Virus record (IMG/VR): IMGVR_UViG_3300045988_076381
DNA: 64,000 nt
Source of the DNA: a virus
Direction: 5' to 3' (one strand)
Below are positions 11,857-34,300 of the stretch, piece by piece. A program made the translations under genes and the position numbers. The notes under the pieces were generated by a model. The model saw only the letters and a list, made by a program, of their open reading frames with translations, ran no database searches and was not told the DNA's origin. Each line of letters opens with the position of its first letter. Positions within the stretch are counted from its first letter, which is position 1.

Positions 11857-12161
11857 TGAAATATAAAGATATCATATTAATATTCTATTGTTTATTAATT
11901 GTAATATTAACATTTGGAATTGGAAGAATCTCAGGAAAGATATCACATCAAAGTGATATAATAAAAGAGAATTTAAATATACAAAATTATCTTCCATCTA
12001 TAGATATTAGGAGATATTCTCCGGTAAGTGAGACTGAACAGTCTTTATTAAATAAAATGAGTAAAGAAGGTTATTGTTTAGTTGATGTAACAATTGAAAA
12101 TGGAAGAGTATTTTATTATTTTCAAAAGATAGTATATAAGAAAGAATTTAATTTGAAATAA
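11856..12161 (+). CDS. small membrane protein (lysis accessory candidate)
   Basis: N-terminal TM helix IILIFYCLLIVILTFGIG. TAATG overlap with the SLT gene. Last gene of the + arm. Confidence 0.5.
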   Translation: MKYKDIILIFYCLLIVILTFGIGRISGKISHQSDIIKENLNIQNYLPSIDIRRYSPVSETEQSLLNKMSKEGYCLVDVTIENGRVFYYFQKIVYKKEFNLK

Positions 12162-12163
12162 AG

Positions 12164-12207
12164 AAACCCTAACAGTGCATTATGCATTGTTAGGGTTTTT
12201 CTTTTTT
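12164..12207. terminator. bidirectional intrinsic terminator between the convergent arms
   Basis: Stem AACCCTAACAgTGCA / TGCAtTGTTAGGGTT, flanked by AAAGAA upstream and TTTTTCTTTTTT downstream. It sits between the + stop (12161) and the - stop (12206). Confidence 0.75.
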
Positions 12208-12676
12208 ATTTGGCTGGATATTTTTTATTAGATATGTATTTTAAGAATTTAAATTGAAATAATTTCCTAGTATTTAAATATTCTGGATTATTTTCATTAT
12301 ATCTAGCCTCAGTTTCAAAACATATATTCTTATATGCCATATTATATGGAGGTAAAATTATCTCTATAATCCAACATATTACATATATTAACAATGGAAG
12401 TAAAGGAGTAGCTAAAATCCACCATAAAGAGAGATTAAATATTAAACAAGATAAAACTGCTATAATAATAGATGTAATCCAAATCTCAGTCTGTTGATAT
12501 ACATGAATCGTTTCATGTCTAAAAAATCTTTCATTAAGTCTTCTAGTATCACCCTTATGTTCGCTTCTTATCCATAAAATAAAAATAGTTACCATAGCAA
12601 GAAATCCTTTAACTGGAATTAGTGGATTATATATTACTAATGGTAAAAGTTTATGTTTTTGTTTTGATGTAGTCAT
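12206..12676 (-). CDS. polytopic membrane protein with HExxH motif
   Basis: 156 aa with about 4 hydrophobic segments and the motif FFRHETIHVYQ (HExxH). Last gene of the - strand operon. Confidence 0.6.
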   Translation of the reverse strand: MTTSKQKHKLLPLVIYNPLIPVKGFLAMVTIFILWIRSEHKGDTRRLNERFFRHETIHVYQQTEIWITSIIIAVLSCLIFNLSLWWILATPLLPLLIYVICWIIEIILPPYNMAYKNICFETEARYNENNPEYLNTRKLFQFKFLKYISNKKYPAK

Positions 12677-12689
12677 ATATAATAAGTAT

Positions 12690-15600
12690 TTATTCTTCTG
12701 AATTTAATAAATTAAACACGTTCTGAGTTTGTTTTATTACATAAAAATTCTTAGGAATCTCTTTTCCGAAAGAACTTTCTCCTTTAGCTATTCTAATAGT
12801 AGAGTCTTTCAGTCTTTCTAAAAAACTAAGAGCTACCGGAGTATCTAAAGAAAGTCCTAGAGGAGCCCAAAATACAAGTTCGTCAGTGGAATTTAATAAA
12901 GTTTGTCTTAGAATATTCTTAGTTAAGGGATCAAATTCTTCTCCACTTTCTTCTTTATCTTCTATTATTAATCTAAATAATAATGCAAGTAAAGCAGCCC
13001 ACATAGAATCTGCTAATAATTGTCTAGCATTTCTAATTCTATAATCTTTATGTTCTAAAGTTGCATCAGTATTCTTATTTATATAATACTTAAATAAATA
13101 TTGCATATAATAGAATGTACTATTTACCATTCCTTCTATAAATCTTCCAGTCCATTCTTTAGCTGGAATATCTGTAACTTCTGTAGTTTCTATTAAGTGA
13201 GATTCTCCATTTTCATCCACTATAGATTTTAAATAAAGTAAATTTCCTTCATCATCAGTCTTTTGCCTCCACTCCCCTTTAGGAGTTTTATCAGTTCCAC
13301 CTAAGAAAAATCTTTCACGAGTAGACGAGAAGTAAGATTTAAATTGGAATAGTATTTTACCAACAAATTTATGTCTAGCAGCAAAAGCATTTTCATGGTC
13401 CATATAACCAAATAAGGAATCAGCTGAGGATTTTATATTTCTTTTTTCTGCAACGGTATATGCGGAAGGTAATGCTACTGGATTAGATTCATTAAATTTT
13501 AACTCTTCCCAATCAAGATCATTTTCATGTTCAATATTAAATTGAGTTAGATGTGCGATATAATCTGCTTTTTGTTTATTATATAAAGGATGCGATTTAT
13601 CTCCAGATGCGAATATAGAATATCTCCCATCTTTAGTCCAATCATATATCAATTCTCCATCTTTAGACATATGGTGAGCTTTCAAACAATCATCATGAAT
13701 CATTTGAGCTACTATAAATACCATTCTATTTAAAAAATCTGGAGCAGTAGTAGCCCAATAAGCACCTCTTCTTAATAATCCTTTATAACCTTTTCTATCA
13801 GAATTTAATTCGTACGCTAACGAATTAGCATCCATTCTAGTCATCCCATAAAAATAGTTTAAAGCTTCTACTAAAGTCCAATTATCAGAACTTACACCGG
13901 TATTTCCCATAACTATACCATAAGCTTTAGCAGCTTCTGAGGAAGTAAATCCATTATCTCCTAATAATCTACCAGCAGCACGAGTCATTAGAAGATAAAA
14001 TCCTTGGATAGGTTCTCTAACCAATGAATTAAGATTTAATGCCAACATTGAAACTCGTGCGGCTGTAGTAAATGGCTGAATTGCTTTATAAAATTTCTGA
14101 TTAGATTTTTCTATAGCACTTTCTCCAAATATAACAGTTTTTAGATAAATATCAATTTGTTTATTTAAATTCTCAAAGTTAACATTAGTATCGTATGACT
14201 GTAAATATATAGCATGTCTTATATCGTTAATAAAAGGAAGAATAGTATCAAAAGAAGATTTTCTTATATAAGCATGAACGAATACATCCTCTAATAACTC
14301 TAAGTTAGTCTCCCAATAAGAGGTATCTTGTTCTGAAAGATATTTTTCTCTAGTAGTTGGAGAAACATTTAAGAAATTATACATAGTTAAATAATCATTC
14401 TTTCCGGCTTCTGAATCCTGTTCAATCGTTTCTTCTTGAGCTTTAGTAGCCCTTCTTATATCAACCTGTTCATTCCATTTATCTTTTATCCATGAAAAGA
14501 ATCCCTTACTTTTTAATTGGGAAAATGCTGTACCTCTTAATAAAGGTATATCAAAATAGTGCCCGCTTTGAATTAGTTCCTGCACAGGAGTAGTTTTTAT
14601 TGCTTCTTCTTCTGTTAAATTATAATCAACTCCACGCTTTATTCTATTTACATTCCATAAGAAAGATTTCAACCATTTTCGCTCGGCTTGAGAAAGATCA
14701 TTTGTCATGTCATAAGGATTCTTTGCTCTAAAATTACGAGCTATTCTTCCAGTAGAATCTCTCTCAAACATATTTTTAAATGCGTTAGTTGAATCTTTAA
14801 AAGTCCATCGTTCTACTTGAGTAAATCCTTTTGATTTATATAACTCTAACACTCGTTGTAAAGATTTCTCCTTATATTTCTCAAACCATTCACGCATCTT
14901 CTGGAATTGTAATTCAGTTAAATCTACTATATCTTTCATTAAAGGAATCATTTCTGGATTTTCTACATAATACCCTCCTAAGGTCATAGTTTCAGATATA
15001 TTTTTGAGATTGAAACTTATTTGACTTATATCATGATCTGAATCGAAATAGATACGTTTATAATGTAGAATAGTCCTAGATATTTGGGAATATAATAAAG
15101 ATAATCCAGTTGGGTCAGAATCATAATTATTATCTGCTCTAATAATTAATCTGTTTCCGGCTGCTTCTCTAATAATATCTTGTAATTTTCTTAACTGTTC
15201 TATTTTATATCTACCGGTTTCATTATCTAATTTATAATTATTATAGAAATCATAAATTAAATCAGAAGTTCCTTTTACTAATTCTGTTCTATCTTGTCCT
15301 AGAATAGTTAATAGTCTTAATTTTAAAGCTTCTATCCTATCTGCAATTATTAATTCTGATTTAAAGTAATTTGTAATATCTAGTTCCTTAGATAAGATAT
15401 TAAAATTATGCGTTAATTTATTTATATCTATAGGATAAGATTGTCCTTCTTTATAATTAATTACTTGAATATTTCCTATTTTAAAGTTACTAAAATAATC
15501 ATGTAATTCATTTATAACTAACATTGTCTCTAATAACTTAGCGTTTCCTACAGTATTGGATAATAGATTTTTTAATTTCTTATATTTAGCCTCAGATCCT

Positions 15601-21230: not shown

Positions 21231-24200
21231 TTAACAATTTATAATAAGTTTTATTTTATTAAGCCTCATTAGATTATTTATAAGCTCGACTGTTTCAATA
21301 GTTTTGCTAGTCTTATTATTAATCTCTTTTAATTTATAGTTATAATTACTTCTTATTAAGTAATATCTTTCATCTCCTAGAAGATCCACTTCTTTAAATT
21401 TTTTATTCTTAGTATCTTTTCCTATTTGTTCTAAGAGCTGATATTTACCTAAATCTTCATTATATACCTTTACATATTTATTATTAGAAATTAATGCTTC
21501 AAAACTATCTCTAATTGAAGCCATTCTAAGAAGGATATCATCTATATTAACATCTTCCATAGTTACTTTATCACTCTTTGAATCATAAATTACTCCGGGA
21601 GTTATAGTATTTAAATCTAATCCTCCAATATATTTAAAGTAATCTACAATTAAACTTCCAGGATTAAATACTGATCCTTGTAATACTTTTAATATACTAT
21701 CTTGTCCTTTTCTCCCTTTATGAGTAATTAAATTATATATGAAAAATAAATCTGATAACTTGATCCCTCTAAATTCAACATTTTCAATTTCTCCAAATGC
21801 TGAAACTTGTTTATCAAATTCTGGATTATTTACAGTAGTAACCATATTTATAGATGGTCTGTAATATATATAATTAGATCCATCTAATTTAGAAGTATTA
21901 TCAGTTATAATTAATCCATTTAAAAATGCGTTATTAACTAACTGAGATCCAAAAGTCATTACTCCTTTAGAATTAATTGTATATCCACTCTTTAACATTG
22001 GAATTACATAAGATTCCATATATAATTTAAAGGATGCTAAACCATCATCATTAGATAAAGAATAAGATGTCTGCTCGGTAGCAGTAAGCATTTCCCCATT
22101 TAAGAAATAATTTTGGCCTTTAGGAACTGAAATAGATAAATTTTTATTTTTTAAATACTTCCTAATTATCAATTCATCTATATAATCTCTAATGATATTT
22201 AGTTGAGATTCAGATAGTTTATTAGGCATAGTAATTTTACCAATCCTCCTTCTCATTATTACGTTTTCTAAATTATCTATAATAGAGTTTGATAATGCAT
22301 ATTTAACACTTCCTAATTTAGAATTTTGTTCATTTATATAATAAGCATTAATAAATGCTTTATAATGCGGAAGAGAATCTATTAAATCAAATACATTTAT
22401 TACAGACTTTATTAAATTATAGAATTTAATAACAGATTCAGCATAATCAGGTTGTTCTAAAAATTTAGTTAAATCAAATTTCATACTAGAAAAAGTTCCA
22501 TTTGAAGACATTTTATCTAGAGCATCTCCAACTATAGAAGATAATTCTTGATCTGTATATATATTCCCAATATTAGGGTTATATTCTTTTAATGCCCCAA
22601 TAAAATAATCAGCTGTATCTCCGGTTAATTGAAGTTTATCTAATCCATTCTGAATTAATGTATTAAAGGACTTGCTGAAATTATATCTATCATATTGTTT
22701 AGTCTTTATACCTCCATTAATTCCTAAAATTTGACCTAACGTAGCTATTTCTTTTGCTCCAGTGTAAGCTTTTACAAAGGTAGTAAAATTTGTTTTAGAT
22801 TTTACTGATGAATTAAACAAATCTTTTAAATCTTTAAATTTCCTCACTTGTTTAAAATATCTAATTAATCCCTGCACTACTTCCTCAGAAGATCTAACTA
22901 ATGCTAATTCATCCCACTCTGACATAGAATCTAAGAATGTTAAAGCATACTCTTCATCAAGAAATCTTTCATTAACAAAATTATATTTAGTAGTTTCAAG
23001 ATCATTTATAATTTCGTTTATATCATTTGATGTTAGTTCATTAAGTTTAAATGCGGAGATTATCTTAGAATTATATAATGTATTTAAATATAATGAAACA
23101 GATTTTACATATCCTTTTCCAATAAAATTTGTAAGTGATGGTCCTTTTTCTATATTTCTTAATGTGGAATCTATAGTAGCGTATTGATCATACATTCTAT
23201 TAACTGTAGCTGCTTGAACTATAGCATTAACCTCTGAACTAGTCATAAGATCTGAGATATTATCAAATGATAAGCCTTGGATTAATAAATATACATATAC
23301 TCCAGCCAGGTCAGGACCAGCGTTAATCTTTGATAAGATCAATTCTTTAGCATTGTCAGTAGCAGCTGAGATTAAACTTGAGATAACGAGAGATTTGTCT
23401 TCTTGAAATCTATTTTGTGTAAGATCTATTGCATCATTCACACTAATACTTTTATCTCTAGCCTCATTTAAAAGATCATATACAAACTCAATATCATCAA
23501 GATTAATGTTAGCCAAACTATTTGTGAATAATTTAACGAGTTCCCCATCACTCTTCCCTTCATTTCCAGGAATATTTTTATAAATCTCAAAAACATTATT
23601 AAAATATAAATTTGATTTTAATAAATCTTCTACAGTTAATCCTTTTTCAGCTAATTTTCTTATCTCCTGATTAAAGTACTGAGTTGCAGCTAAAAATACC
23701 TTTTGTCCTACAGCACTTATACCGATAACTTCCTTCCCTGCCATATTCTCGAAGAATAAGTTCCATTTAACAGATGGACAGAAATCTGTAACCGTTTTAG
23801 CATAAGCTCCAGCCTCAGATTTAGCAGCAGCAGCTTGTGGGTCTCCCATACTAATAGGTGATTCGGCAGCTACAAGATTCTTAAAGTTATCAGAGATTTG
23901 ATAGATTTTATTATATACAAAATTCTTTGTAGCGGATAAAAGTTTATTTGGACTTATTTCTTTAAGATGTCTAGATATATCAATATCTAAATTCTCTATC
24001 ATATTTGATATAAGTATTCTGGCACTTTCTATATCCTCATTCCTTGATTTATCATCTGAATTTTCTTTTATATAATTTAGATCATTAACTAAATCAGGAT
24101 TATAATATAATTGTATATTAGTTTGTTTGAATCTATCTACCTTATTTAAAACATCTACAGCTAATTTTAATCTAGTATTATCCCCATCATATTCTCCGTT

Positions 24201-24395
24201 TAAGATAGATAAGATTTCAGGAGTTATATCTATATAAGGTATTTCCGGATTTATTTCAGAAGTTATTGTATATTTTAAATCTGAATTTGGAAATGGTAAT
24301 TGTTTTGAGAGTTCAAATGATTCATTATCTCTATAATTAAATAACGATGACCATGCTTCATAAATTCCATTTTTATTTATTAAAGGCATTGTCAT
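21231..24395 (-). CDS. giant protein segment (1054 aa as annotated); probable 3' exon of a spliced gene
   Basis: Long ORF whose frame stays open for 12 codons upstream of its ATG (back to TGA 24434-24432), immediately downstream of two group I intron cores. Confidence 0.75.
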   Translation of the reverse strand: MTMPLINKNGIYEAWSSLFNYRDNESFELSKQLPFPNSDLKYTITSEINPEIPYIDITPEILSILNGEYDGDNTRLKLAVDVLNKVDRFKQTNIQLYYNPDLVNDLNYIKENSDDKSRNEDIESARILISNMIENLDIDISRHLKEISPNKLLSATKNFVYNKIYQISDNFKNLVAAESPISMGDPQAAAAKSEAGAYAKTVTDFCPSVKWNLFFENMAGKEVIGISAVGQKVFLAATQYFNQEIRKLAEKGLTVEDLLKSNLYFNNVFEIYKNIPGNEGKSDGELVKLFTNSLANINLDDIEFVYDLLNEARDKSISVNDAIDLTQNRFQEDKSLVISSLISAATDNAKELILSKINAGPDLAGVYVYLLIQGLSFDNISDLMTSSEVNAIVQAATVNRMYDQYATIDSTLRNIEKGPSLTNFIGKGYVKSVSLYLNTLYNSKIISAFKLNELTSNDINEIINDLETTKYNFVNERFLDEEYALTFLDSMSEWDELALVRSSEEVVQGLIRYFKQVRKFKDLKDLFNSSVKSKTNFTTFVKAYTGAKEIATLGQILGINGGIKTKQYDRYNFSKSFNTLIQNGLDKLQLTGDTADYFIGALKEYNPNIGNIYTDQELSSIVGDALDKMSSNGTFSSMKFDLTKFLEQPDYAESVIKFYNLIKSVINVFDLIDSLPHYKAFINAYYINEQNSKLGSVKYALSNSIIDNLENVIMRRRIGKITMPNKLSESQLNIIRDYIDELIIRKYLKNKNLSISVPKGQNYFLNGEMLTATEQTSYSLSNDDGLASFKLYMESYVIPMLKSGYTINSKGVMTFGSQLVNNAFLNGLIITDNTSKLDGSNYIYYRPSINMVTTVNNPEFDKQVSAFGEIENVEFRGIKLSDLFFIYNLITHKGRKGQDSILKVLQGSVFNPGSLIVDYFKYIGGLDLNTITPGVIYDSKSDKVTMEDVNIDDILLRMASIRDSFEALISNNKYVKVYNEDLGKYQLLEQIGKDTKNKKFKEVDLLGDERYYLIRSNYNYKLKEINNKTSKTIETVELINNLMRLNKIKLIINC

Positions 24396-24413
24396 GTAGA
24401 CTTTATCAATATC

Positions 24414-24731
24414 CGTTTGACCTTTATATTTTCATATAAAGACTGACTATATCATCACTTTTAAAGTGCCTCCCGCTTCGGATTATTTAAATCCTACTCT
24501 ACTAAGTTCTATTTAAATATTAAATAGCTTTTCGATAGTCGATGAACTCTTCTCTTATATAAGAGACTTAGCTGCGGATTACCCAATCTTAATACTTTTT
24601 ACTATACTGAGGTAATTACTCTCACCATTTAAATATTACTATCTAAACTTAGTATATTAAGCTCTAAGGGATTTCCCGCAATTCAAGAGGTTTAATGACT
24701 ACAATATAACCTATAGTCCGATCCTTGGCTG
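24414..24731 (-). ncRNA. group I (IA-like) intron core, copy 2 (boundaries approximate)
   Basis: Core elements P AAUUGCGGGAAA (24683-24672), Q AAUCCGCAGC (24580-24571), R GUUCAUCGACUAU (24547-24535), S AUGAUAUAGUC (24455-24445). Helices P4 UGCGGG/UCCGCA, P6 UCUCUUAU/AUAAGAGA, P7 GACUAU/AUAGUC, P7.1 CUAUUUA/UAAAUAG, P7.2 GGAUU/AAUCC, P3 CCUCUU/GGGAGG, P8 CACUU/AAGUG, P9 CUUUAUAU/AUAUAAAG. Confidence 0.8.
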
Positions 24732-24734
24732 AGA

Positions 24735-24976
24735 CTTATTATCTTATAACTGTTTATGTTATAATTCTATGATTTCATTTTGTTATATTCATAGTTTAGA
24801 CTATATCTTCATGAATTACTCATGTTGGATGCTCGTGGGAGAGATTATTGTTAGGCTCACTCTCCTAGTCGTTGAACCTTCTAGATTCTTTTAACCTAAA
24901 TCTAGCTCGGCTGCTGATTGTCCACTTCTGGAGTTCCCAGCAATTCTTCCAATTTTATATGACCCCTAAGTATTTA
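24735..24976 (-). ncRNA. group I (IA-like) intron core, copy 1 (boundaries approximate)
   Basis: Core elements P AAUUGCUGGGAA (24945-24934), Q AAUCAGCAGCC (24919-24909), R GUUCAACGACUAGG (24877-24864), S AAGAUAUAGUC (24809-24799). Helices P1 AUAUGGCU/GGUCAUAU, P3 UUGGA/UCCAA, P4 UGCUGG/UCAGCA, P5 UCCA/UGGA, P6 CUAGAUU/AAUCUAG, P7 GACUA/UAGUC, P7.1 GGAGAG/CUCUCC, P8 CAUGA/UCAUG, P9 CUAUGA/UCAUAG. Confidence 0.8.
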
Positions 24977-27900
24977 AGCCATATCTGATACAGATTAACA
25001 TAAGCTTCATTACTTTCTGCATCAGAGAATCCTACTACATCCATTGTCATAATAGACTGAAATGCTTGTGCAGGAATACGATTCGCTGTTATTTTTAAAC
25101 TCTCAATAAATGATCTATATATCTTCTTAGAATCTCTTTCGATTCTTCTATTTATATAATCATCATATTCATCTTTTATCTCTTCTATACTACTATTATT
25201 TATAGCTAATTCTTCTCCTAATCTCGAATCTGTCATATTTATATAATCTCTTAACTCTTTAATATTATCAGAATTAAAATTATACCATATTCCTATATAC
25301 TCATCAGAAGAATTAAATACATTAACTAAATTCCCTAAATTAGAAGGATCTACAACAATCACTTCTTGAACTATTCCATTACTAGTATCCTGATAAAAAT
25401 GAAGTCCAGATGTTTTATATACAGCTTCTCCATTTTCATTTAATCTCCATTCTTCTCCATCTATAACTTCTGTTAATATTTCCAGTGGAGTTAGTGAAGA
25501 TATATAATTTTCAGAACTAGGCTTATTTATAATAATTCTAGTATTATCTAAACTATTCTTTAGAAATTCTATATCATTAGGAAGAGGATCAGATTTAGCT
25601 TTATTATATGTTCTTAATAATTTCTGTCTAAAGTACTCCCCATTACTATTAATAATATTCGCAATATTATCTCCAGTTCGTAATCCGAATATAGATTGAT
25701 ATACCTTAGATATTACAGCCTGTGCTCTTTTTATATTTAAATCATGTATTCTTACTCCTTGAAGTCCTCCGACAAATTCTATTATATCATTGTTATCTAT
25801 AATCATTTGATATTCAGGCATTCTCGGATCTAATAACATAATATTTTCATCCAATAATCCAATATATCTATTAACAAACTGTTGAAGTGCTAGAATTTCC
25901 TCTTTAGATGCTTTAGACTCTCTTAATCTAAACATATCTTCGATTATCGGATGGTCATAAATATTATATTTCTTATTTATCCCATCAATACTCCAAGTAG
26001 CTCTAAAAGGTTGAAGTTCTTTTCTGATTCCTTTTAAATTAGTTACTGTAGTATTTAAATTCCTATAATGTTTAAATTTATCATAAGTATTTATATCCAC
26101 CTGTTCTCCAGTAGTAGGATCTAATACAATATCACCAAATTCTATTAAATCCGTAGATATTTCCTGTGTTAAATTTCCTGTTTCTAAATATCTATCTAAA
26201 CCTGATCTAAGAATATTTCCATTTTCATCAGTAAGAGAATAATAACCAGCTTCATTAGCTATATGTATTAAATCTTCCTGAGAATAATATCCTCTTAAAA
26301 CATTTCCATTAGAATCAAATAAATTCTCAGATCCATCAAAATAATAATGTTTTATAGATCCATAAGAAGGAATCATTACAGCTCCCATACCAGAGAAAGT
26401 TCTTTTAATACTATCAGAGTTCATTTTAGATGCTAACATAGTTATAAAAGAACTATTTATACTTCCGGAACTAAACGGAATTTTAAATCTTAAATCTCTA
26501 GCATTAAATAATTCATTATTTAAATTCTCCTCAAACTCTCTTGCAGCTTCTTCCAAATAACCAGTAATTACTCCATCTCCAGAGCTTCCTTCGAAGGCTT
26601 TAATAGTTGCTTTAGCTAGAAGTTTATATAATAATGTTTTATTAGCTTCTCCTAATTCTGTAAGAGTTTCTAAGTTATTAGCTTGATTATGCGCTTCAAA
26701 ATACTTCTTTAAAGTAGTATTTACTACAGAACCTAAAGCTCTATAAGCCGCATCAGCTAAATCTGATGTATATCCATTAGCTGCTAAAGTACTAATAATC
26801 TGAGTAGATTCAGTAACAGTAGATAAATCAGCATGGTGATCTGCATCCATTTGAATACCCACGAATTGTGTACCAACTCTACCATAGGATAAAGGAGTAT
26901 CATCGTATCTAGCATTGGCTGGATTTGTATTAAACGCTCCAACTTTTATTGATGTTCCATTTGCTAGGTAATGTATATCAGAGTATTTAAGAGGTTGATA
27001 TATATAATTCTGATCTAGTATTACTCTTAATTTTCTTTGTTCGTCTAATATATAACTAGAATCTTCTGGAATATTGTTAAATGTAAATGGAAGATCTTGT
27101 TTAGATATAATTGTATTTAATAAATCTAAATCACCATTAACCATATTTAATAGATCCCTCTTAGTTATATAATATCCGGTTTTATTCATAAACTGTACTG
27201 TAGCATTTACAGAAGCCTCTCCTTTATCTCCGGAATTACTTAAATAAGGATCTAAAGGATTAGAATTATCTAATGAATAAGAATACTCTCCACCTAGAGC
27301 TTTCCATAATTTATAATTACTATCTATTACTACAGTTCTTGTTACATTTCTACTATTCTGAGTATCTCCCCCGTTATTATTAACTCTTCGTTCTATAATA
27401 TTATAAGTATTATTTCCTAGAGATTCTAAATCAATTATTCTATAATATTCTCCATTATTCGCATTATAATAATATAAATCCTCGGATATAATATCTCTAA
27501 GATGACGTTTATTACCATTAAAATCTTGCATTAAATTAATAATAGGAACATCCCATTTTCTATCAGTCATTTTTTGCAACAATTTAACTTTCTCCGGAGA
27601 TTTTCTCATTCGATAATTAGTTATAGAGAATATAGCACATTTCATTAATAACCCATTACCAAATTCAAGATCTACATTATATCCAAAATTCTTTCTATTA
27701 TATCCAGCACTAGAGCTAAACATTGAATTGTTCTCTAACACATTTTGAAATGGATTACATTCCATAGAGCCATCTAATACCTTTACATTATCAGTCTCCC
27801 CAGAAGGATTAAATACAGGAGCTTCTATATCTTTGATAATTGCTACATTTATAGTTGGAGTTGTTCCTTCTAATGCTTTTTGATAATAGTTGTGTATAGT

Positions 27901-30900
27901 AGCCTGCATAGCAACCATACGTTTATATTGAGCTAATAATCTATTAGCATGATCCCGGATAAAATATTCCGGATTTATAGATCCATCGGAATTTAAATAA
28001 TACACGCCTCTTAATTTAGAAGGATGTGCATAAGGTTCACCTACACTTACTTGAAGGAATTGATTAGATAAGAACCCATCCAAAAAGAAATATTTTTCTA
28101 ATATAGGATTTAATTTCCCATCTTTTTCTAATAACATCATTCCATCTCTGCCAATCCAATTTTTTAGAGAAGGAATATCTTTTAAGAATTTAAATACTTT
28201 GGTATCTACTTCAATACCTTTAGATTTTAAATCCTTTTTAAATATCTCTTTTGATCTATTTATAAAATCCTTGTAATAAGAATTATCTGTAGTAGATACT
28301 TGATAGATATTAGCCATATTTTCTATAAATGGATTTAATCTAAATACACTATTACCTTTAGACATTTCCACTTTAGAATAATGAACTTCTTCTATAAATT
28401 TAAAATTAGGATCTTCTAAACTTAATTCTCTAGCTATTTGAGAGACTTCCTTCCATCTAGTAGATAAGAGATTATTTATTGCGATGATATTATTATTTAT
28501 AATCTCAGCTTTTTCTTTCTTATTTTTAATTTTAGATATAGAATCTAATAAAGAAACACCTAATCTTTCACCTATTCTATAATAAGATTTAAATAAATTT
28601 GATAATAGATTAGTATAATAAATCTGTTGGCTATTAAAATTCTCTACTTCGATCTGAGTAGCAGATGCAGATTTAATATTCTTCCCATCAAATTTAATAT
28701 CCTTAGATATTTTAATAAGAGATTGATTAGATTTATCTGCGTATACAGTTGGAAGAAATTCTATATAATTAATTTGATCATTCATTAGATTTTTGAAATA
28801 ATCTAATATTATAGATGATACTCCGTACTCAGAAACATTGAATTTATTCTTTTGTACTGTTGTTCCATTTGGAGATATAAATTCTGTTTTTAATCCAATT
28901 CCTTTTAAATATTCTGGATTATTATAGAATATATTAGATTCGAATATATTAGATATATTAGAATGCTTTCTAACATTATTCTGATAATCTCTAGTAGTAT
29001 ATATAAACTCGTGTATGTTTTTAACTAAATTCATCAATCCTATAGATGGCACATTATCTCCATCAGAGTTTTTATATGTACTTGGACTAGCTTCTCTATT
29101 TAATAAATTTATGGAACTAACTGCGGCTTTAAATACACTTGATCTATCTCCTTTAGAATTTAAATTAACCTTTAATCTTGGTCTAGTTTTACTTGATGTA
29201 AAGAATTTATTAAAAGTAATATCCTTCATTGTTTTAAATTCTGGAAAGGATTTTTTTACTTTAGATTTAAATTCTCCTGGAGTAAGATTAACTTTATTAG
29301 AATCATATTCTTTATATATAGAATCTAGAGTATCAATTGTTTTAAGTGTTCTATATAATAATCCCAAAAGATCTCCTTTTAGATTAGATTCGGCTTCCGT
29401 TCTATATTGTGATTTTAATATAGAATATAATTGCCCAGAACTATTTATAAATGGAAGATCTGTAGATAATTGTAACAATTCTAACAACCTAAATCCATTC
29501 ATAATAGATTCTGATAAAGTTTTACCATTTATAATCGCACTAACTTGTTCTGGATTTGGGATTGTAATACTATCTAATAATTCTTTATTTAAATCTTTTC
29601 CAGTTATAGCATCTTCGTTAGCAATATTTAAATGATCATTAATAAATAATGTTCTAGATCCAATGGTGATAGAAATAGAATCATCTAAGACCTTAACTCT
29701 AAATTTATTTCGTAATACATTTAAAATAGTATTATCATAATCACCATTTCTAGCTATAGAATCAACATATTCAGTTAAATTTCTTTCCTGTCTAAATAAA
29801 GAGGATTCATAAGTTAGATTTGAGAATGTATTTACTTCATACTCTTTACTTTCTGAATTATATTCATATGATATATATTCTGATCCATCCTGTTTATTCA
29901 TATAAGCTAAGACATCCAAGAAATAGTTAAAACTTAAATCTCCTTGGTTATCTTTAATTATATTATATAAAGATTTAGCTTCTGGAGTAGAGTCAAAGAT
30001 GTATTTATATATAGACAATAATGCCTTTTTAGTATCTAAATTAAAGTCTAAATTCTTCTTAAATTTATTTATTTTTGATGGATCAGTTTTTCCATCTGTA
30101 ACAAATAAAGAATTAAAAAATTCTATATAAGCTACTGTAGGATTTAATTTACCTAATTTTAATGAATTATATTTATTAGAAGATTTAATAACAGGATCTC
30201 CGATTCTAGATATAGCATTGTTAAATTCATTAACTGTCATATAAGATATCTCATCCCATTTCCCATCAGAATCTAATAAAGGAATATTTTGTATAATAGC
30301 TTTAGTTAAACTAGTAGTCTCTCTATTTATATCGGAATCTTCATTAACTCTAAAATGTTGTCTTAATGCATTTTTAGTGAACGGAAGATATTTAATTTCA
30401 TTTCTATTAGTAGATTTAATTCCTAATTTAAATGGATCTATTGAAATTAATCCGTCTGTTAATAATACTATTAAATTATCAAAATTCTCTAAAGTCACTA
30501 AAGCGTTATATGCATTTAAATAATCTTGATTAGATTTAGATAAAGGAGTGTATAGAACATTATTAATCGAATTTAATTTTGATGTAGGATTATGTTGATC
30601 ATAATATTCATTTAATCTAGATATAATAGTAGTAAATTCTGTAATATTAAAAGATCCATCCTGATTATATAAAGGAATAATATCTTTTTCTCCTAAAAAT
30701 TTTGTTATATGATTAAATAATATTTGTTTATATTCTGCAATATTATTATTTAATTCTGAATAAGTTCGAACAATTTTTCCAGAATCTAGATTTAGAAAGG
30801 AATTTTTAAATATCTCCCTTTTAAATGTAGAAACAAATCTATTATATAAACTATTATTATTTTGAAATTTAGTAATTAAATCTCTATTAGTCTTTATTTC

Positions 30901-31338
30901 TTCATTATAGGTAACGTTTTTTCTACTTCTATTTAATTGTTCTACATATTCTTTCGTAGCTAAATCTCTATCCTCCTCCGTCACAGATTCATCTTCTTCT
31001 ATAGTCTTTACTTCATTCTCTAATGTAGTTACTAGAGGATCTGGATTTTTATATTCTTCCGGAGGTAAAGTTTTTTCTATATTCTTAGTTAAAATTTTAT
31101 CTAAGGAATTATTAAGTATTGTATTTAATTCCGTATTATAGGAAAATAATCTTATATATTCCTTTATTGCATCTACTAAATTTTCATCAGAATCAATGAT
31201 AAAATCTTTTTGCAGAGAATTTTTAATATTCTGAAATTGTTGATCTGAAATAGTATCTCCCTGAAAATTAATCCAGGGAGATAGATTTATTAAAAATTCT
31301 GGGCTTCTAGTGTTTGAATCAAAAAATTTACAAGCCAT
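24955..31338 (-). CDS. giant virion-block protein (2127 aa from MACKFF start); probable 5' exon of a spliced gene
   Basis: Uninterrupted 6.4-kb ORF. Its last ~7 codons and stop lie inside the predicted P1/P2 region of intron copy 1. The size is similar to crAss-like virion RNA polymerases, but no catalytic motif could be assigned confidently. Confidence 0.8.
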   Translation of the reverse strand: MACKFFDSNTRSPEFLINLSPWINFQGDTISDQQFQNIKNSLQKDFIIDSDENLVDAIKEYIRLFSYNTELNTILNNSLDKILTKNIEKTLPPEEYKNPDPLVTTLENEVKTIEEDESVTEEDRDLATKEYVEQLNRSRKNVTYNEEIKTNRDLITKFQNNNSLYNRFVSTFKREIFKNSFLNLDSGKIVRTYSELNNNIAEYKQILFNHITKFLGEKDIIPLYNQDGSFNITEFTTIISRLNEYYDQHNPTSKLNSINNVLYTPLSKSNQDYLNAYNALVTLENFDNLIVLLTDGLISIDPFKLGIKSTNRNEIKYLPFTKNALRQHFRVNEDSDINRETTSLTKAIIQNIPLLDSDGKWDEISYMTVNEFNNAISRIGDPVIKSSNKYNSLKLGKLNPTVAYIEFFNSLFVTDGKTDPSKINKFKKNLDFNLDTKKALLSIYKYIFDSTPEAKSLYNIIKDNQGDLSFNYFLDVLAYMNKQDGSEYISYEYNSESKEYEVNTFSNLTYESSLFRQERNLTEYVDSIARNGDYDNTILNVLRNKFRVKVLDDSISITIGSRTLFINDHLNIANEDAITGKDLNKELLDSITIPNPEQVSAIINGKTLSESIMNGFRLLELLQLSTDLPFINSSGQLYSILKSQYRTEAESNLKGDLLGLLYRTLKTIDTLDSIYKEYDSNKVNLTPGEFKSKVKKSFPEFKTMKDITFNKFFTSSKTRPRLKVNLNSKGDRSSVFKAAVSSINLLNREASPSTYKNSDGDNVPSIGLMNLVKNIHEFIYTTRDYQNNVRKHSNISNIFESNIFYNNPEYLKGIGLKTEFISPNGTTVQKNKFNVSEYGVSSIILDYFKNLMNDQINYIEFLPTVYADKSNQSLIKISKDIKFDGKNIKSASATQIEVENFNSQQIYYTNLLSNLFKSYYRIGERLGVSLLDSISKIKNKKEKAEIINNNIIAINNLLSTRWKEVSQIARELSLEDPNFKFIEEVHYSKVEMSKGNSVFRLNPFIENMANIYQVSTTDNSYYKDFINRSKEIFKKDLKSKGIEVDTKVFKFLKDIPSLKNWIGRDGMMLLEKDGKLNPILEKYFFLDGFLSNQFLQVSVGEPYAHPSKLRGVYYLNSDGSINPEYFIRDHANRLLAQYKRMVAMQATIHNYYQKALEGTTPTINVAIIKDIEAPVFNPSGETDNVKVLDGSMECNPFQNVLENNSMFSSSAGYNRKNFGYNVDLEFGNGLLMKCAIFSITNYRMRKSPEKVKLLQKMTDRKWDVPIINLMQDFNGNKRHLRDIISEDLYYYNANNGEYYRIIDLESLGNNTYNIIERRVNNNGGDTQNSRNVTRTVVIDSNYKLWKALGGEYSYSLDNSNPLDPYLSNSGDKGEASVNATVQFMNKTGYYITKRDLLNMVNGDLDLLNTIISKQDLPFTFNNIPEDSSYILDEQRKLRVILDQNYIYQPLKYSDIHYLANGTSIKVGAFNTNPANARYDDTPLSYGRVGTQFVGIQMDADHHADLSTVTESTQIISTLAANGYTSDLADAAYRALGSVVNTTLKKYFEAHNQANNLETLTELGEANKTLLYKLLAKATIKAFEGSSGDGVITGYLEEAAREFEENLNNELFNARDLRFKIPFSSGSINSSFITMLASKMNSDSIKRTFSGMGAVMIPSYGSIKHYYFDGSENLFDSNGNVLRGYYSQEDLIHIANEAGYYSLTDENGNILRSGLDRYLETGNLTQEISTDLIEFGDIVLDPTTGEQVDINTYDKFKHYRNLNTTVTNLKGIRKELQPFRATWSIDGINKKYNIYDHPIIEDMFRLRESKASKEEILALQQFVNRYIGLLDENIMLLDPRMPEYQMIIDNNDIIEFVGGLQGVRIHDLNIKRAQAVISKVYQSIFGLRTGDNIANIINSNGEYFRQKLLRTYNKAKSDPLPNDIEFLKNSLDNTRIIINKPSSENYISSLTPLEILTEVIDGEEWRLNENGEAVYKTSGLHFYQDTSNGIVQEVIVVDPSNLGNLVNVFNSSDEYIGIWYNFNSDNIKELRDYINMTDSRLGEELAINNSSIEEIKDEYDDYINRRIERDSKKIYRSFIESLKITANRIPAQAFQSIMTMDVVGFSDAESNEAYVNLYQIWLKYLGVI

Positions 31339-31340
31339 AT

Positions 31341-34300
31341 TTAACAAATATTATATTTACTTCTTATCTTATTTATATCAGATAGTATTGTTTGTATATT
31401 CATATTAGATAAAATTAAATTTACTGTATCAGGGATGATTTCAGATTTAGTTATATAATCCACTAGTAAGTTATTGCTATCATAAGTTAATAACACTTTT
31501 GTTATATTTCTTAATATTTCTAAATCTTTAGGATCTGATACTACATCAAACATTTTTCCAAATGCTTGTGACAAAGATATAATATTTTTATCAGAATTAC
31601 TATCTTCTCTTACTAAATTTTCTTTATTCCTAGAATAGATGTTTAGAGAATCTTTTTCAAAGTTATAGTCTATATAATCCACTTCTGTTGTAGAATCTAA
31701 ACTAATAGATTCTGATTTAAGACGATTATTTACTAATCCTAAAATATTTCTTATATCTTCTGAGATAGAAGTTTCCGAACGTCTAGCAGGATTAGTGAGA
31801 ATAGATCCAATTGAATCATCTATAAGATCATTTAGATCATTATTACTAGTATTTAATTTACGTCCTATTTCTGCTCCTAATATTTCTAATGTATTTATAG
31901 GAGCTTCTGATTTGGTTTCTACTTCTGGTTTAATTCTTTCAACTCTAGCAATGCCAAAATTAGTAGGATCAGCTAAATCTCTAGAAGGTTGGAATACGAA
32001 TTGTGGGGTTTGAATATCTCTATCTATATAATACTGCCCCTCAGGATTTCTTGCTTCGTAAAAATATTCTCCTCCAGTATAATCGGTTTTCTTATCTGTT
32101 AATTCATAAACTGGAAATGGAAAAATTCCATTTTTAAATAAAGGATTATAATTAGGAGCTTCTACAGAATTAATACTTCCATCAGGCTGTTTATAATTTC
32201 TTCTTCCCAACATAGCAAATTCCATAAAATCAATTATATCTAAATCAGTAATTCCATCTTCTTTATTCCAATCCTGAAATATTCCACCATTCTCTTCATT
32301 TATAATTGGAGAAGAAACTAATAATTCAGGATGTAACCTTTGATTTATCTTAAACTCTATAATTTTATTTATAAATTTAAGTACATCATTTCCGTTAATA
32401 GTAGAAGAATAATTTTCCATCTTTTTTATCTCTTCTGGAGTAGTTTCCATATGTAACCTCTCCATTATTCTTAGGATATGAGGTAATCCAAATTTAACTT
32501 TAGAACCAGGAAGATCAAATGGATTTTCCGCATTTCCTTCTTTGGCAGCAAGTGCTGATAGAGAATTAAGTAACTTTTCAGCAATTTTTATGTGCTTAGA
32601 TTCCGGCTTTCCAGTAGTTTTTAGGTAATTATAATAATTATATATAGATAGTAATGTATCAAATCCTATAAAATCTCCAAAGTAAGATTTATAAAATTTA
32701 CCATTATATTTAGCTACTCCAGAATTCTTTTTATATGAATTTATAAATTCTCTATATTTAGATATAAAGGATTGGAATGTTTGTCCTTCCGGATTTAAAA
32801 TGATCATTCTAATTTTATCTCTTCTATCTAGATCATTATCATATTTTCCATTCATTTGGTCTATGTAATAATCTCCATACTGATCTTCTGAGATAATATT
32901 ATCATCCTCATCAAATATATATTTACTATGTGTAGCAAATACTACTGCTTTGCCTTTGATATTATTCTTATTTATTTCAGCATTTAATCTCTCAGATTTA
33001 GATTTTAATATAGGTTCTAATCTAGATTTTTGAGTAGTATCTGCTTTATTATATTCCTCTAAAGTTTCATAATAATCATTATATAGAGTATTTAATCTCT
33101 CGTTACGTTGAATTAATAACTCATTCCGATTAGATTTACCGTATCTAGTATTAGTTACTATATAAGGTTTGGAGAAGTAAATTCCTCTAAATTCAGATTC
33201 TTTAGATTCAAATGGAACATGTGCAAATTTTTTCTTATCTGATCCTTTATATATAATACTATTAGTAATTCGTTCTAATTCGAAATCATCTCTAAGCTGG
33301 AAATATTTATTAGATTTTCCACTTTCATCCAAAATGAAACTATTCATTATTTGTCCATAGAATTTTTGATATTCTACAAACCATGCTTTAGAAGCTCTTT
33401 GTTCTGGAGTATCAGAATCTTTAATTCTAAAAGATTCATTATTAATATTTGGTAATTCTACTATATAAAGCTCTACAGTATTCTCTTCTGTAGAAGAATT
33501 TAATATAGGAATTTCATATATAATTCTAATAACAGAATCTTCTTTTCCTATAGATTTATTAAAATATTTAGTTGCTTTTAATACAAACTTCCCGTTAGAT
33601 AAATCTAATGTTCCAGTATTTCCAGATATGTCATTATATAAATTAGATAAATCTTGTTCAATATTATAATCTTTAAATAATTTATTTCTTCTGGATTTTG
33701 TGTAATTATATAATATACTCTTTACTTCTAATATCTTTTCATCAACTCTTTCGAATTGTGTAGGATTTAAGCCATCAATTTCTCCATTAAAGAATGCTCT
33801 ATGTTCACTATTTGAATCTAATCTTAGCATTATAGCGGAATCTTTAATGCTATAAGTAGTTATATCACCATTAATTTCTGCTTTAGGTTTAATTCTTGTT
33901 CTATAAGAATAACATATAAAACTATCAGGAGAATGTTTCTCTGTTTTAGATTCTATTCTTTCTAATTGTTGAATTTCTCTATTAGCTTCTGGAGAATCAC
34001 TAAATGCAGCATCTAAAACTTTTCCTAATTCTACATTAGGTTGGGGTGTTGAGACTGATGTAGTAGAAGATTCTTTCTTTTGAGGTTCTATAGTTTTATT
34101 CTCTAACGAAGCATTAAGAGCTTTCAATCTTAATTCTGAGAAAGATTTAGCAGCTTCATTATTTAATATAGAGGATTGTGTATAACTAATTCTTTCAGAT
34201 CCTTTAGTAAGTTTAGTAGTTAACCCATTATTTATAATAATAGTACCTTCTTTAGATCTAGTTATAGCAGTATATAAATCTCTAGTAGCTTTTTCTACAA

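What the first reader, a model, noticed from the sequence alone, without database searches (positions are those of the whole stretch)
24414..24731. Second, independent group IA intron core (copy 2) immediately downstream
A second full set of core elements follows the first. These are P AAUUGCGGGAAA (an exact consensus match), Q AAUCCGCAGC (exact), R GUUCAUCGACUAU and S AUGAUAUAGUC. The helices are P4 UGCGGG/UCCGCA, an extended P5 arm of about 95 nt, P6 UCUCUUAU/AUAAGAGA and P7 GACUAU/AUAGUC. Two IA-type insert hairpins are present (CUAUUUA/UAAAUAG and GGAUU/AAUCC), followed by P3 CCUCUU/GGGAGG, P8 CACUU/AAGUG and P9 CUUUAUAU/AUAUAAAG. The peripheral elements differ from copy 1, so this is not a simple recent duplication. 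Candidate 3' splice sites fall after G24414 (supported by a 3-bp P10, GAU/AUC, next to a candidate IGS GGACU) or after G24421. Neither copy contains a homing-endonuclease-sized ORF.
Basis: partly seen in the sequence, partly recalled or inferred. Interest (0 to 1): 0.75.

Follow-up and report, generated by a model that had tools for sequence, protein, structure and literature searches.

The report
Second tandem self-splicing phage intron
This is a real group I self-splicing intron, the second of two side by side and separated by only 16 coding bases, and it cuts a giant crAss-like phage gene (probably its RNA polymerase) inside the conserved Asp-x-Asp-x-Asp motif; the kind of element is well known, but the arrangement explains why such genes look broken.

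Summary
The finding holds, with corrections. Rfam's group I intron model scores both copies above its curated threshold on the minus strand: copy 2 at 24741-24423 (62.2 bits, cut-off 50) and copy 1 at 25012-24780 (64.8 bits).

Its 5' splice site, guide sequence and P10 are wrong.

- Copy 2 is 24712..24414 (299 nt). P1 is GACUAU/GUAGUC, P10 is GAUAU/AUAUU, and the terminal G is G24414.
- Copy 1 is 24976..24729 (248 nt).
- Between them lies a 16-nt micro-exon (24728..24713) encoding (L)QGSDY.

Removing both introns fuses the 2130-aa and 1054-aa ORFs into one 3189-aa ORF. That ORF is colinear with intron-less relatives across the invariant motif WLQGSDY|DIDK.

Seventeen relatives of copy 2 at the same site pair in 98.7% of cells, against 38-49% in shifted controls. 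Twenty-three base pairs carry compensatory changes, including pairs in P1.

Relatives carry no intron, copy 2 alone, both introns, or versions of copy 2 with LAGLIDADG endonuclease genes. At least three or four insertion sites cluster within about six codons.

The host gene is probably the crAss-like RNA polymerase, but direct homology tests failed. This is a new member of a known kind, with moderate interest.

The parts
24414..24712 (-). Intron 2, the finding's 'copy 2': an ORF-less group I intron of 299 nt. It starts AGGUUAUAUU... and ends ...GUCAAACG, with the terminal G at 24414.
   Evidence: Rfam RF00028 scores 62.2 bits against a cut-off of 50. The boundaries come from intron-less and single-intron alleles. 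The structure covaries in 17 relatives. Coordinates verified.
24713..24728 (-). Micro-exon of 16 nt, CCAAGGAUCGGACUAU. It supplies the third base of the Leu codon plus Q-G-S-D-Y. Its last 6 nt, GACUAU (24718-24713), form the exon strand of P1 of intron 2.
   Evidence: Splicing gives ..YQIW-L-QGSDY-DIDKVY.., colinear with the intron-less WLQGSDYDIDK. The micro-exon is conserved in all two-intron alleles.
24729..24976 (-). Intron 1 ('copy 1'): an ORF-less group I intron of 248 nt. P1 is AUAUGGCU|U (exon 24984-24977) with guide sequence GGGGUCAUAU (24966-24957). It has P9 and P9.1 hairpins, and its terminal G is at 24729.
   Evidence: Rfam scores 64.8 bits for 25012-24780. It is absent from the 98%-identical alleles L003/L004, which fixes its boundaries. 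RNAfold recovers P1, P9 and P9.1.
24697..24707 (-). Internal guide region of intron 2. AUAUU (24707-24703) pairs with the first 5 nt of exon 3 (P10). GUAGUC (24702-24697) pairs with the micro-exon end (P1), with a U24713-G24702 wobble at the 5' splice site.
   Evidence: P1 has 3 pairs with compensatory changes: exon GAC/GAU with guide GUC/AUC, and exon UAU/UUU with guide GUA/GAA. P10 is 5 bp and paired in 98.8% of cells.
24469..24690 (-). P3 to P7.2 domain of intron 2.
- P3 24690-24684 with 24475-24469
- P4 24680-24675 with 24578-24573
- P5 24670-24668 with 24584-24582
- P5a 24661-24654 with 24595-24588
- P6 24566-24561 with 24556-24551
- P7 5' strand 24540-24535
- P7.1 24527-24521 with 24515-24509
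- P7.2 24494-24490 with 24484-24480
   Evidence: Compensatory pairs: 5 of 7 in P3, 5 of 8 in P5a, 1 of 3 in P5, and 2 of the 4 tested in P6. P4 and P7 are invariant. P7.1 and P7.2 could be tested only in 8 close relatives, where no pair changes on both sides.
24414..24468 (-). P8 (24468-24464 with 24460-24456), P7 3' strand AUAGUC (24450-24445), P9 (24441-24434 with 24429-24422) capped by a GAAA tetraloop (24433-24430), and the tail GUCAAACG ending in the terminal G at 24414.
   Evidence: P9 has 5 of 8 compensatory pairs and P8 has 2 of 5.
24977..31347 (-). Exon 1 of the giant gene: 2123 codons plus 2 nt. It was called mechanically as a 2130-aa ORF that reads on into intron 1.
21231..24413 (-). 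Exon 3 of the giant gene. It begins GAU AUU GAU AAA (D-I-D-K). It was called mechanically as a 1054-aa ORF starting at the ATG at 24395.

Best explanation
Copy 2 is a genuine ORF-less group I intron of the IA type, similar to phage IA2 introns. It occupies 24712..24414 on the minus strand.

It is the downstream member of a pair of independent introns in one giant late gene of a crAss-like phage. A 16-nt micro-exon separates the two.

It sits at a codon boundary inside an invariant G-S-D-Y|D-I-D motif (DxDxD). That motif is probably the Mg-binding site of the phage's giant RNA polymerase.

Inferred mechanism, the standard group I pathway:
1. The micro-exon end GACUAU pairs with the guide GUAGUC to form P1, with a U-G wobble at the splice site.
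2. An external guanosine bound in P7 attacks after U24713.
3. P10 (GAUAU/AUAUU) aligns exon 3.
4. The freed 3' OH attacks after the terminal G24414.

Intron 1 is removed in the same way using its own P1 and its own terminal G. Only removal of both introns, with the micro-exon retained, gives the 3189-aa ORF.

What is shown here: the RNA architecture, the exact junctions, ORF restoration, covariation, and presence/absence polymorphism. What is inferred: catalysis itself and its independence from protein cofactors.

The intron has no endonuclease gene of its own. Relatives at the same site carry a LAGLIDADG gene in the P7.2 loop, so this copy is most simply a derivative that lost the gene, or one that never gained it, and that spreads by recombination or with endonucleases supplied by co-infecting phages.
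For: - Rfam RF00028 scores 62.2 bits against a cut-off of 50. Both copies are the only hits in the 64 kb, even at relaxed E-value.
- Splicing at the stated junctions gives one 3189-aa ORF with no internal stop.
- The junction peptide ..NLYQIWLQGSDY|DIDKVY.. is colinear with L003 (98% identical, copy 2 only), with MT835470 (about 28% identical, same site, with LAGLIDADG) and with intron-less alleles that read TGG TTR CAR GGT TCT GAC TAT GAT ATT GAT AAR.
- Covariation on alignment A3 of 17 site-B introns: 98.7% of cells paired against 38-49% when partners are slid; 23 pairs changed on both sides against 1-5; score 0.292 against at most 0.088; 0 of 500 shuffles reach it. Compensatory changes occur in P1, P3, P5, P5a, P6, P8 and P9.
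- U at -1 and G at the 3' end hold for all sites examined.
- LAGLIDADG_2 ORFs sit in relatives' introns at E 1e-26 to 2e-32.
- The core is 70-78% identical to introns of Staphylococcus, Listeria, Bacillus, Vibrio, Lak and crAss-like phages.
- Thirteen substitutions lie in the roughly 35 nt immediately 5' of the site, against none in the flanking 240 nt, between window and L003. This looks like a co-conversion tract.
- Host context: a crAss muzzle protein hit (PF25731, E 4.6e-29). Yutin et al. 2021 (PMC7886860) place a DxDxD-bearing giant RNAP in the crAss-like transcription block.
Against: - There are no RNA data, so splicing is inferred from sequence alone.
- P7.1 and P7.2 could be tested only in 8 close relatives, where no pair changes on both sides.
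- P4, P7 and P10 never vary, so they are uninformative.
- The A3 alignment was made after cutting ORFs and a P6 extension out of the longer relatives by hand. The structure was derived from the window sequence, which favours it over the slid controls.
- A 16-nt exon between two ribozymes invites exon skipping, as seen in Twort orf142 and the SIOphi polymerase gene (PMC11878797). Splicing efficiency is therefore unknown.
- The RNA polymerase identity of the host gene was not confirmed by any direct test.
Confidence: 0.88

Rival explanations
1. The intron core is real, but the boundaries are the reader's: a 5' splice site after AAGUCU (about 24732), guide sequence GGACU, a 3-bp P10 GAU/AUC, and no exon between the two introns.
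For: AGUCU (24736-24732) and GGACU (24719-24715) can form 5 bp. Rfam's generic model also drew its P1 there.
Against: - GGACU lies within codons GGA UCG GAC UAU for the invariant G-S-D-Y, which intron-less alleles encode contiguously.
- Alleles L015 and L016 read AAUUCU with no compensating change in GGACU.
- Single-intron alleles such as L003 have no AGUCU partner at all, yet keep the GACUUU/GAAGUC pairing.
- The alternative P1, GACUAU/GUAGUC, has three compensatory pairs.
Confidence: 0.02
2. The introns are decayed relics that no longer splice. The 2130-aa and 1054-aa ORFs are translated separately as two subunits.
For: - Gene callers report two ORFs in every relative.
- An ATG lies 18 nt inside exon 3.
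- There are no expression data.
- 63 of 150 family representatives in protein databases end within the motif.
Against: - The split would leave D-Y on one chain and D-I-D on the other, cutting an invariant motif.
- Both ribozyme cores score above the curated threshold.
- 98.7% of helix cells are paired, with many compensatory changes between lineages, so the fold is under purifying selection.
- The frame and the encoded residues are restored exactly.
- 78 of 150 representatives are single uninterrupted ORFs of about 3000-3700 aa.
Confidence: 0.05
3. The two cores form one composite unit: a twintron, or a single excision from the 5' splice site of copy 1 to the 3' splice site of copy 2. The 16 nt between them would not be an exon.
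For: The two cores are only 16 nt apart. Exon skipping by tandem group I introns is documented in Twort and SIOphi.
Against: - Joining ..UGGCU to GAUAUU.. shifts the frame and deletes the invariant QGSDY (sequences).
- Each core has its own P1, its own guide sequence and its own terminal G.
- Copy 2 occurs alone in L003, L005, L018 and L020, with the QGSDF codons directly in exon 1.
- Neither core is nested inside a helix of the other.
Confidence: 0.03
4. It is a true group I intron, but it is not autonomous. Efficient splicing in vivo would need a protein cofactor, such as a LAGLIDADG maturase supplied by a related intron or a host factor.
For: - Relatives at the same site encode LAGLIDADG proteins, a family that includes maturases.
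- The intron is very A+U-rich (31% G+C).
- Four of eight Bastillevirinae introns spliced only in vivo (PMC11878797).
Against: - The core is complete, including a GAAA-capped P9 and a long P5 arm.
- No maturase gene is detectable in this window.
- ORF-less copies persist in several lineages.
Confidence: 0.15

Closest known systems
Phage subgroup IA2 group I introns (T4 td, nrdB and nrdD; Staphylococcus phage Twort orf142; Bacillus SPO1-like and Bastillevirinae terminase and polymerase introns)
   Same: - The same P/Q/R/S core and the same R and S consensus (GUUCAxCGACUA / GAUAUAGUC).
- Extra hairpins between P7 and P3'.
- A GNRA-capped P9.
- Insertion in a conserved catalytic motif of an essential phage gene.
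- 70-78% nucleotide identity over P3-P7 to Staphylococcus, Listeria, Bacillus and Vibrio phage introns.
- Several introns in one gene, as in Twort orf142 (cited in PMC11878797).
   Different: - The host gene is a 3189-aa crAss-like gene, not nucleotide-metabolism, DNA polymerase or terminase.
- There is no P2.
- The intervening exon is only 16 nt.
- Subgroup assignment rests on architecture and BLAST similarity, because no subgroup-specific model was available.
Group I introns of crAss-like phages (Yutin et al. 2021, Nat Commun, PMC7886860)
   Same: The same phage assemblage and high intron density. A LAGLIDADG intron is drawn in the transcription gene block (their Fig. 3). Copy 2 is 72-77% identical over its core to introns in cr271_1 (DNA polymerase) and cr108_1, and copy 1 is 67-68% identical to introns in cr1_1 and cr50_1.
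   Different: That study detected introns through their endonuclease domains, so ORF-less introns like these two would not be seen. It reported RNAP ORFs disrupted 'within the DxDxD motif' and proposed 'additional, yet unknown expression mechanisms'. Here the disruption of the motif is fully explained by two ORF-less introns.
The same intron family with a homing endonuclease at the same site (MT835470 = L001; IMG/VR loci L026-L028 and L043-L060)
   Same: The same insertion point (GAY UAY | GAU AUU GAU). The same P1, P10, P3-P9 and tail (UGAUGAUAUAGUCAGUCUU...AAACG), and the helices covary.
   Different: Those copies are 1073-1748 nt. They carry a LAGLIDADG_2 ORF in the P7.2 loop, and some also carry a 211-aa zinc-finger ORF in the P5 arm, a hairpin in the P1 loop, a bulged A in P4 and a long P6. 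The window copy has none of these.

Membership tests
Group I intron (Rfam RF00028) | Covariance-model score at or above the curated gathering score | tested here: met
   62.2 bits against a cut-off of 50, E 2.2e-13, full model 1-253, for 24741-24423 on the minus strand
Group I intron (Rfam RF00028) | Conserved core helices P3-P9, including the P3/P7 pseudoknot, supported by covariation | tested here: met
   72 pairs, 98.7% of cells paired against 38-49% when slid, and 23 pairs with changes on both sides. P4 and P7 are invariant and therefore uninformative.
Group I intron (Rfam RF00028) | P1 between the 5' exon end and an internal guide sequence, with a U-G wobble at the 5' splice site | tested here: met
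   GACUAU (24718-24713) with GUAGUC (24702-24697). The U-G wobble is present in 17 of 17 sequences and three other pairs are compensatory.
Group I intron (Rfam RF00028) | Terminal G before the 3' splice site, and P10 with the 3' exon | tested here: met
   G24414. The junction is fixed by intron-less alleles. P10 is GAUAU/AUAUU, 5 bp and essentially invariant.
Group I intron (Rfam RF00028) | Removal restores a continuous reading frame colinear with uninterrupted homologs | tested here: met
   A 3189-aa ORF. WLQGSDY|DIDK matches the intron-less loci L024 and L029-L041, and 78 of 150 representatives.
Group I intron (Rfam RF00028) | Guanosine-dependent self-splicing | not testable with these tools
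   Needs an in vitro transcript with GTP and Mg2+, or cDNA from infected cells.
Subgroup IA (IA2-like phage introns) | Extra paired elements P7.1 and P7.2 between P7 and P3' | tested here: met
   CUAUUUA/UAAAUAG and GGAUU/AAUCC are present and fold in the minimum-free-energy structure. In the 8 relatives that could be aligned, no pair changes on both sides, so there is no covariation support. In endonuclease-bearing relatives the ORF sits in the P7.2 loop.
Subgroup IA (IA2-like phage introns) | Assignment by a subgroup-specific model or phylogeny | not testable with these tools
   Only BLAST similarity of 70-78% to Twort-like, SPO1-like, Listeria and Vibrio phage introns is available.
Mobile (homing) group I intron | Encodes a homing endonuclease | tested here: not met
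   The longest ORF in copy 2 is 32 aa. Relatives at the same site do encode LAGLIDADG_2.
Mobile (homing) group I intron | Presence/absence polymorphism at one site among close relatives, with exon co-conversion | tested here: met
   Alleles exist with none, copy 2 only, or both introns. Thirteen substitutions cluster in the roughly 35 nt 5' of the site, against none in the 240 nt on either side. Co-conversion is an inference from that pattern.
Twintron (intron within intron) | One intron nested inside the other, so that the outer one forms only after the inner is excised | tested here: not met
   The two are separated by a coding 16-nt exon. Each has its own P1 and terminal G, and copy 2 occurs alone in L003, L005, L018 and L020.
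crAss-like virion RNA polymerase (two-barrel RNAP, as phi14:2 gp66) | Invariant DxDxD metal-binding motif in a giant protein of the transcription block | tested here: met
   G-S-D-x-D-x-D is invariant in alignment A4 of 22 full-length homologs and intact in 78 of 150 representatives. The context includes a crAss muzzle protein. The link to RNAP comes from PMC7886860.
crAss-like virion RNA polymerase (two-barrel RNAP, as phi14:2 gp66) | Detectable sequence or fold homology to a solved two-barrel RNAP | tested here: inconclusive
   - No PDB hit by phmmer or by profile.
- No Pfam or PHROG hit.
- The AlphaFold model of a homolog segment has mean pLDDT 55.7, and below 50 at the motif.
- Foldseek found nothing at E <= 0.001.

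The most novel reading that the evidence does not exclude
The 16-nt micro-exon flanked by two independent ribozymes inside the catalytic DxDxD motif may be more than two chance invasions. It could act as a splicing checkpoint. Only correct removal of both introns yields active polymerase, and exon skipping gives a frameshifted dead product, so splicing kinetics would tune how much of the giant protein is made late in infection. Alternatively, it could be the footprint of competition between homing endonucleases for overlapping targets. Insertion of copy 1 four codons upstream would then protect the allele from the site-C and site-B endonucleases.
Probability: 0.1. Interest if true: 0.6.

Novelty: new member of a known kind. 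Interest (0 to 1): 0.4.

Why it matters
The ribozyme itself is ordinary. The context has three practical consequences.

1. It shows concretely that "frameshifted" or "split" giant polymerase-like genes in crAss-like phages can be intact genes interrupted by small introns that carry no endonuclease gene. Annotation based on protein domains cannot see these introns. Yutin et al. 2021 left disruptions inside the DxDxD motif unexplained.

2. It defines a dense intron hot spot in an invariant motif: at least 3-4 insertion sites within about six codons, occupied in roughly 40% of the family representatives sampled. Alleles exist with no intron, with one, with two, and with endonuclease-bearing introns. 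That makes it a good natural system for studying the gain-and-loss cycle of homing endonucleases.

3. A 16-nt exon between two group I introns is a stringent test case for exon definition and exon skipping by ribozymes.

Tried and rejected
- Pfam and PHROGs on the three neighbouring giant ORFs gave nothing useful.
- PDB sequence search of both exons found nothing. A 22-sequence profile found only noise.
On the second attempt it gave a poor model, pLDDT 55.7. Foldseek against the PDB gave only noise.
- tblastn of family members against annotated phages found only the unannotated records MT835470 and MT835492. The RNA polymerase assignment therefore stays an inference.
- Rfam at gathering threshold missed the introns of L001 and L002. 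At relaxed threshold, L001's intron appears as two half-hits split by its ORF, and L002's is still missed. A negative Rfam result in relatives is therefore not evidence of absence.
- My first guess for copy 1's 5' splice site, after AAGCU with guide sequence GGCUU, was abandoned. The following 26 nt show a codon-like substitution pattern between window and L003, and RNAfold recovers the 9-bp P1 AUAUGGCUU/GGGGUCAUAU.
- The inner parts of the P5 arm (P5b and P5c) could not be aligned consistently across lineages and were left out of the pair count.
- The first protein search with a single junction peptide found only two clusters. An alignment-based locus search was needed.

Full report
**1. What is there**

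All claimed elements lie on the minus strand. Rfam's group I intron model (RF00028) gives two full-length matches above its gathering score of 50: 25012-24780 at 64.8 bits and 24741-24423 at 62.2 bits, E 2.2e-13. A relaxed whole-window scan finds nothing else. These are P, Q, R, S, P3, P4, P6, P7, the two hairpins between P7 and P3', P8 and P9. The intron alone folds with z = -3.2 relative to shuffles, and the minimum-free-energy structure recovers the nested helices. Neither intron holds an ORF longer than 53 aa. The two copies are no more alike overall than shuffled sequence, 169 against 166.9 +/- 3.6 identical positions, so they are not a duplication.

**2. The host gene and the exact junctions**

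The introns lie between a 2130-aa ORF (31347..24955) and a 1054-aa ORF (24395..21231) on the minus strand.

Contigs L003 and L004 carry the same phage gene, with the spliced CDS 98% identical at nucleotide level. They have only 335 nt between the two ORFs: the copy-2 core with a different 5' end, and no copy 1.

The stretch I first took for the beginning of copy 1 differs from L003 in a codon-like pattern (CUG/UUA, CUU/UUA). The 16 nt upstream of copy 2 encode QGSDY, against QGSDF in L003. This fixes:
- the end of exon 1 at U24977 (..UGG CU|);
- intron 1 at 24976-24729 (248 nt, terminal G at 24729);
- a 16-nt micro-exon at 24728-24713 (C CAA GGA UCG GAC UAU);
- intron 2 at 24712-24414 (299 nt, terminal G at 24414);
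- exon 3 from 24413 (GAU AUU GAU AAA).

Splicing gives one 3189-aa ORF with no stop. Its junction peptide is ..NLYQIWLQGSDY|DIDKVYMTMPL...

**3. Independent confirmation from relatives**

An alignment-based locus search in IMG/VR returned 56 loci of the same gene. Using tblastn and motif scans, they fall into five classes:
- (a) Intron-less alleles (L024, L029-L041), reading TGG TTR CAR GGT TCT GAC TAT GAT ATT GAT AAR without interruption.
- (b) Copy-2-type intron only, ORF-less, 333-335 nt (L003-L005, L018, L020).
- (c) The same intron at the same site but 1073-1081 nt, with a LAGLIDADG_2 ORF in the P7.2 loop (MT835470 = L001, L026/27, L043-L060; Pfam E 2e-26). A longer form of 1743-1748 nt adds a 211-aa zinc-finger ORF in the P5 arm (L006, L017, L025, L028).
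- (d) A different intron two codons upstream, between S and D (L002, L007, L009-L013; 1457 nt where the whole intron is held (L002 is cut off), with a 382-aa HTH-LAGLIDADG ORF).
- (e) Both introns, as in the window (L008, L014-L016, L019, L021-L023).

**4. Structure test**

I aligned 17 distinct site-B introns with 12 nt of exon on each side. ORFs and a P6 extension were cut out of the long ones (alignment A3). I then counted pairs for a structure written from the window sequence.
- Cells forming standard pairs: 98.7%, against 38-49% when the 3' partners are slid by 1-3 columns.
- Pairs with changes on both sides: 23, against 1-5.
- Covariation score: 0.292, against at most 0.088. None of 500 shuffles reaches it.
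- Compensatory pairs occur in P1 (3), P3 (5 of 7), P5, P5a (5 of 8), P6, P8 and P9 (5 of 8).

P1 is the micro-exon end GACUAU with GUAGUC (24702-24697). Synonymous exon changes (GAC/GAU) and the Tyr/Phe change (UAU/UUU) are matched by changes in the guide. P10 is GAUAU (exon 3) with AUAUU (24707-24703).

Caveats: the structure was derived from one of the aligned sequences. P4, P7 and P10 never vary. P7.1 and P7.2 could be assessed only in 8 close relatives.

**5.

The proposed guide sequence GGACU is exon, lying in codons GGA UCG GAC U. Its proposed partner AGUCU is the 3' tail of intron 1. It mutates to AUUCU in L015 and L016 without compensation, and it does not exist in single-intron alleles. 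The finding's interval, 24414-24731, therefore includes the micro-exon and 3 nt of intron 1.

**6. Host gene identity**

The window carries a crAss muzzle protein (PF25731, E 4.6e-29). Its nearest named relatives are Flavobacterium phages FpV4 and Fpv3, plus the unannotated human-gut records MT835470 and MT835492.

An exhaustive search with the last 1200 aa of exon 1 finds 692 homologs. In 22 full-length members, the segment R-I-P-x-Q..Q-S-F..W-L-Q-G-S-D-x-D-x-D is invariant or nearly so.

Yutin et al. 2021 state that one giant protein of the crAss-like transcription block carries the DxDxD motif of the RNAP beta'-like subunit (PMC7886860).

On that basis the gene is probably the giant phage RNA polymerase, and copy 2 splits the motif as D-Y|D-I-D. 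Every direct homology test failed or was uninformative. I hold this at about 0.6.

**7. A hot spot**

Among the 150 best cluster representatives:
- 78 have the motif intact;
- 37 end right after GSD[YFL] (site B);
- 15 end after QGS (site C);
- 4 end after GSD;
- 7 end after W (site A, copy 1's site).

Each site examined has U at -1. Window and L003 differ at 13 positions in the roughly 35 nt 5' of site B and at none in the 240 nt on either side. Overall identity is 98.06%. This is what exon co-conversion during intron acquisition would leave. Copy 1 is almost invariant among two-intron alleles, with 6 variable columns, which suggests recent spread.

**8. Relation to what is known**

Group I introns are common in phages. 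They are reported as dense in crAss-like phages, including a LAGLIDADG intron in the transcription block (PMC7886860). That study found introns through endonuclease domains. It left disruptions "within the DxDxD motif" of RNAP ORFs unexplained, proposing "additional, yet unknown expression mechanisms". Whether the window belongs to the group they discussed (Zeta) was not determined. In this lineage, the disruption is explained by ORF-less introns.

Copy 2's core is 70-78% identical to introns of Staphylococcus, Listeria, Bacillus, Vibrio, Lak and crAss-like phages. Copy 1's core resembles introns of cr1_1, cr50_1 and Flavobacterium phages. Several introns in one gene, and exon skipping, are known from Twort orf142 and the SIOphi polymerase gene (PMC11878797).

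**9. Verdict**

This is a real, independent, ORF-less group IA-type intron. It is a new member of a known kind. The junctions are corrected, and the setting is moderately interesting: a tandem pair, a 16-nt micro-exon, and an intron hot spot in an invariant DxDxD motif.

Noticed in passing
window 24713-24985 (minus strand); loci L002, L007-L013, L024-L060: The invariant motif W-L-Q-G-S-D-Y-D-I-D-K of the giant gene is an intron hot spot with at least 3-4 distinct insertion sites: within the Leu codon, S|D, D|Y(?), and Y|D. Of 150 family representatives, 63 end within the motif and 78 are uninterrupted.
   Followed up: partly
L006 3616-5363; L017 and L025 3616-5362; L028 3595-5337: Some site-B introns carry two ORFs: a 211-aa protein with an FCS-type zinc finger and a weak DUF5889 match in the P5 arm, plus a LAGLIDADG gene in the P7.2 loop. 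In L017 and L025 the LAGLIDADG ORF is broken into pieces of 162 and 85 aa, which looks like endonuclease decay.
   Followed up: partly
window 24977-25012 against L003 9606-9641: Thirteen mostly synonymous substitutions cluster in the roughly 35 nt upstream of the copy-2 site between two otherwise 98% identical alleles, with none in the flanking 240 nt. This looks like a co-conversion tract, or selection to keep P1 pairing.
   Followed up: partly
window 12690-61217 (minus strand): An uninterrupted run of very large minus-strand ORFs: 1490, 1356, 3189 (spliced), 2935, 624, 1524, ... 1637 and 1193 aa. Most have no Pfam or PHROG match. Only the 1637-aa one hits the crAss muzzle family, and the 2935-aa one has a weak AAA_19 match. 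Several adjacent ORFs overlap by a few bases.
   Followed up: partly
window about 12000-12700: The coding strand switches here, and the GC and AT skews change sign at the same place. Upstream plus-strand genes include a Dda-like helicase, an ATP-dependent DNA ligase and a thymidylate synthase.
   Followed up: no
L001 7144-8218; L002 863-1169: Rfam at its gathering threshold misses relatives' introns that are split by an ORF or divergent. L001 appears only as two sub-threshold halves, and L002 is not found at all. Intron counts based on Rfam in these phages will be underestimates.
   Followed up: yes
window 24715-24736 (minus strand): AGUCU in the 3' tail of intron 1 can pair with GGACU in the micro-exon. 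It is not conserved, since L015 and L016 break it, but it could transiently compete with P1 of intron 2 in this allele.
   Followed up: partly
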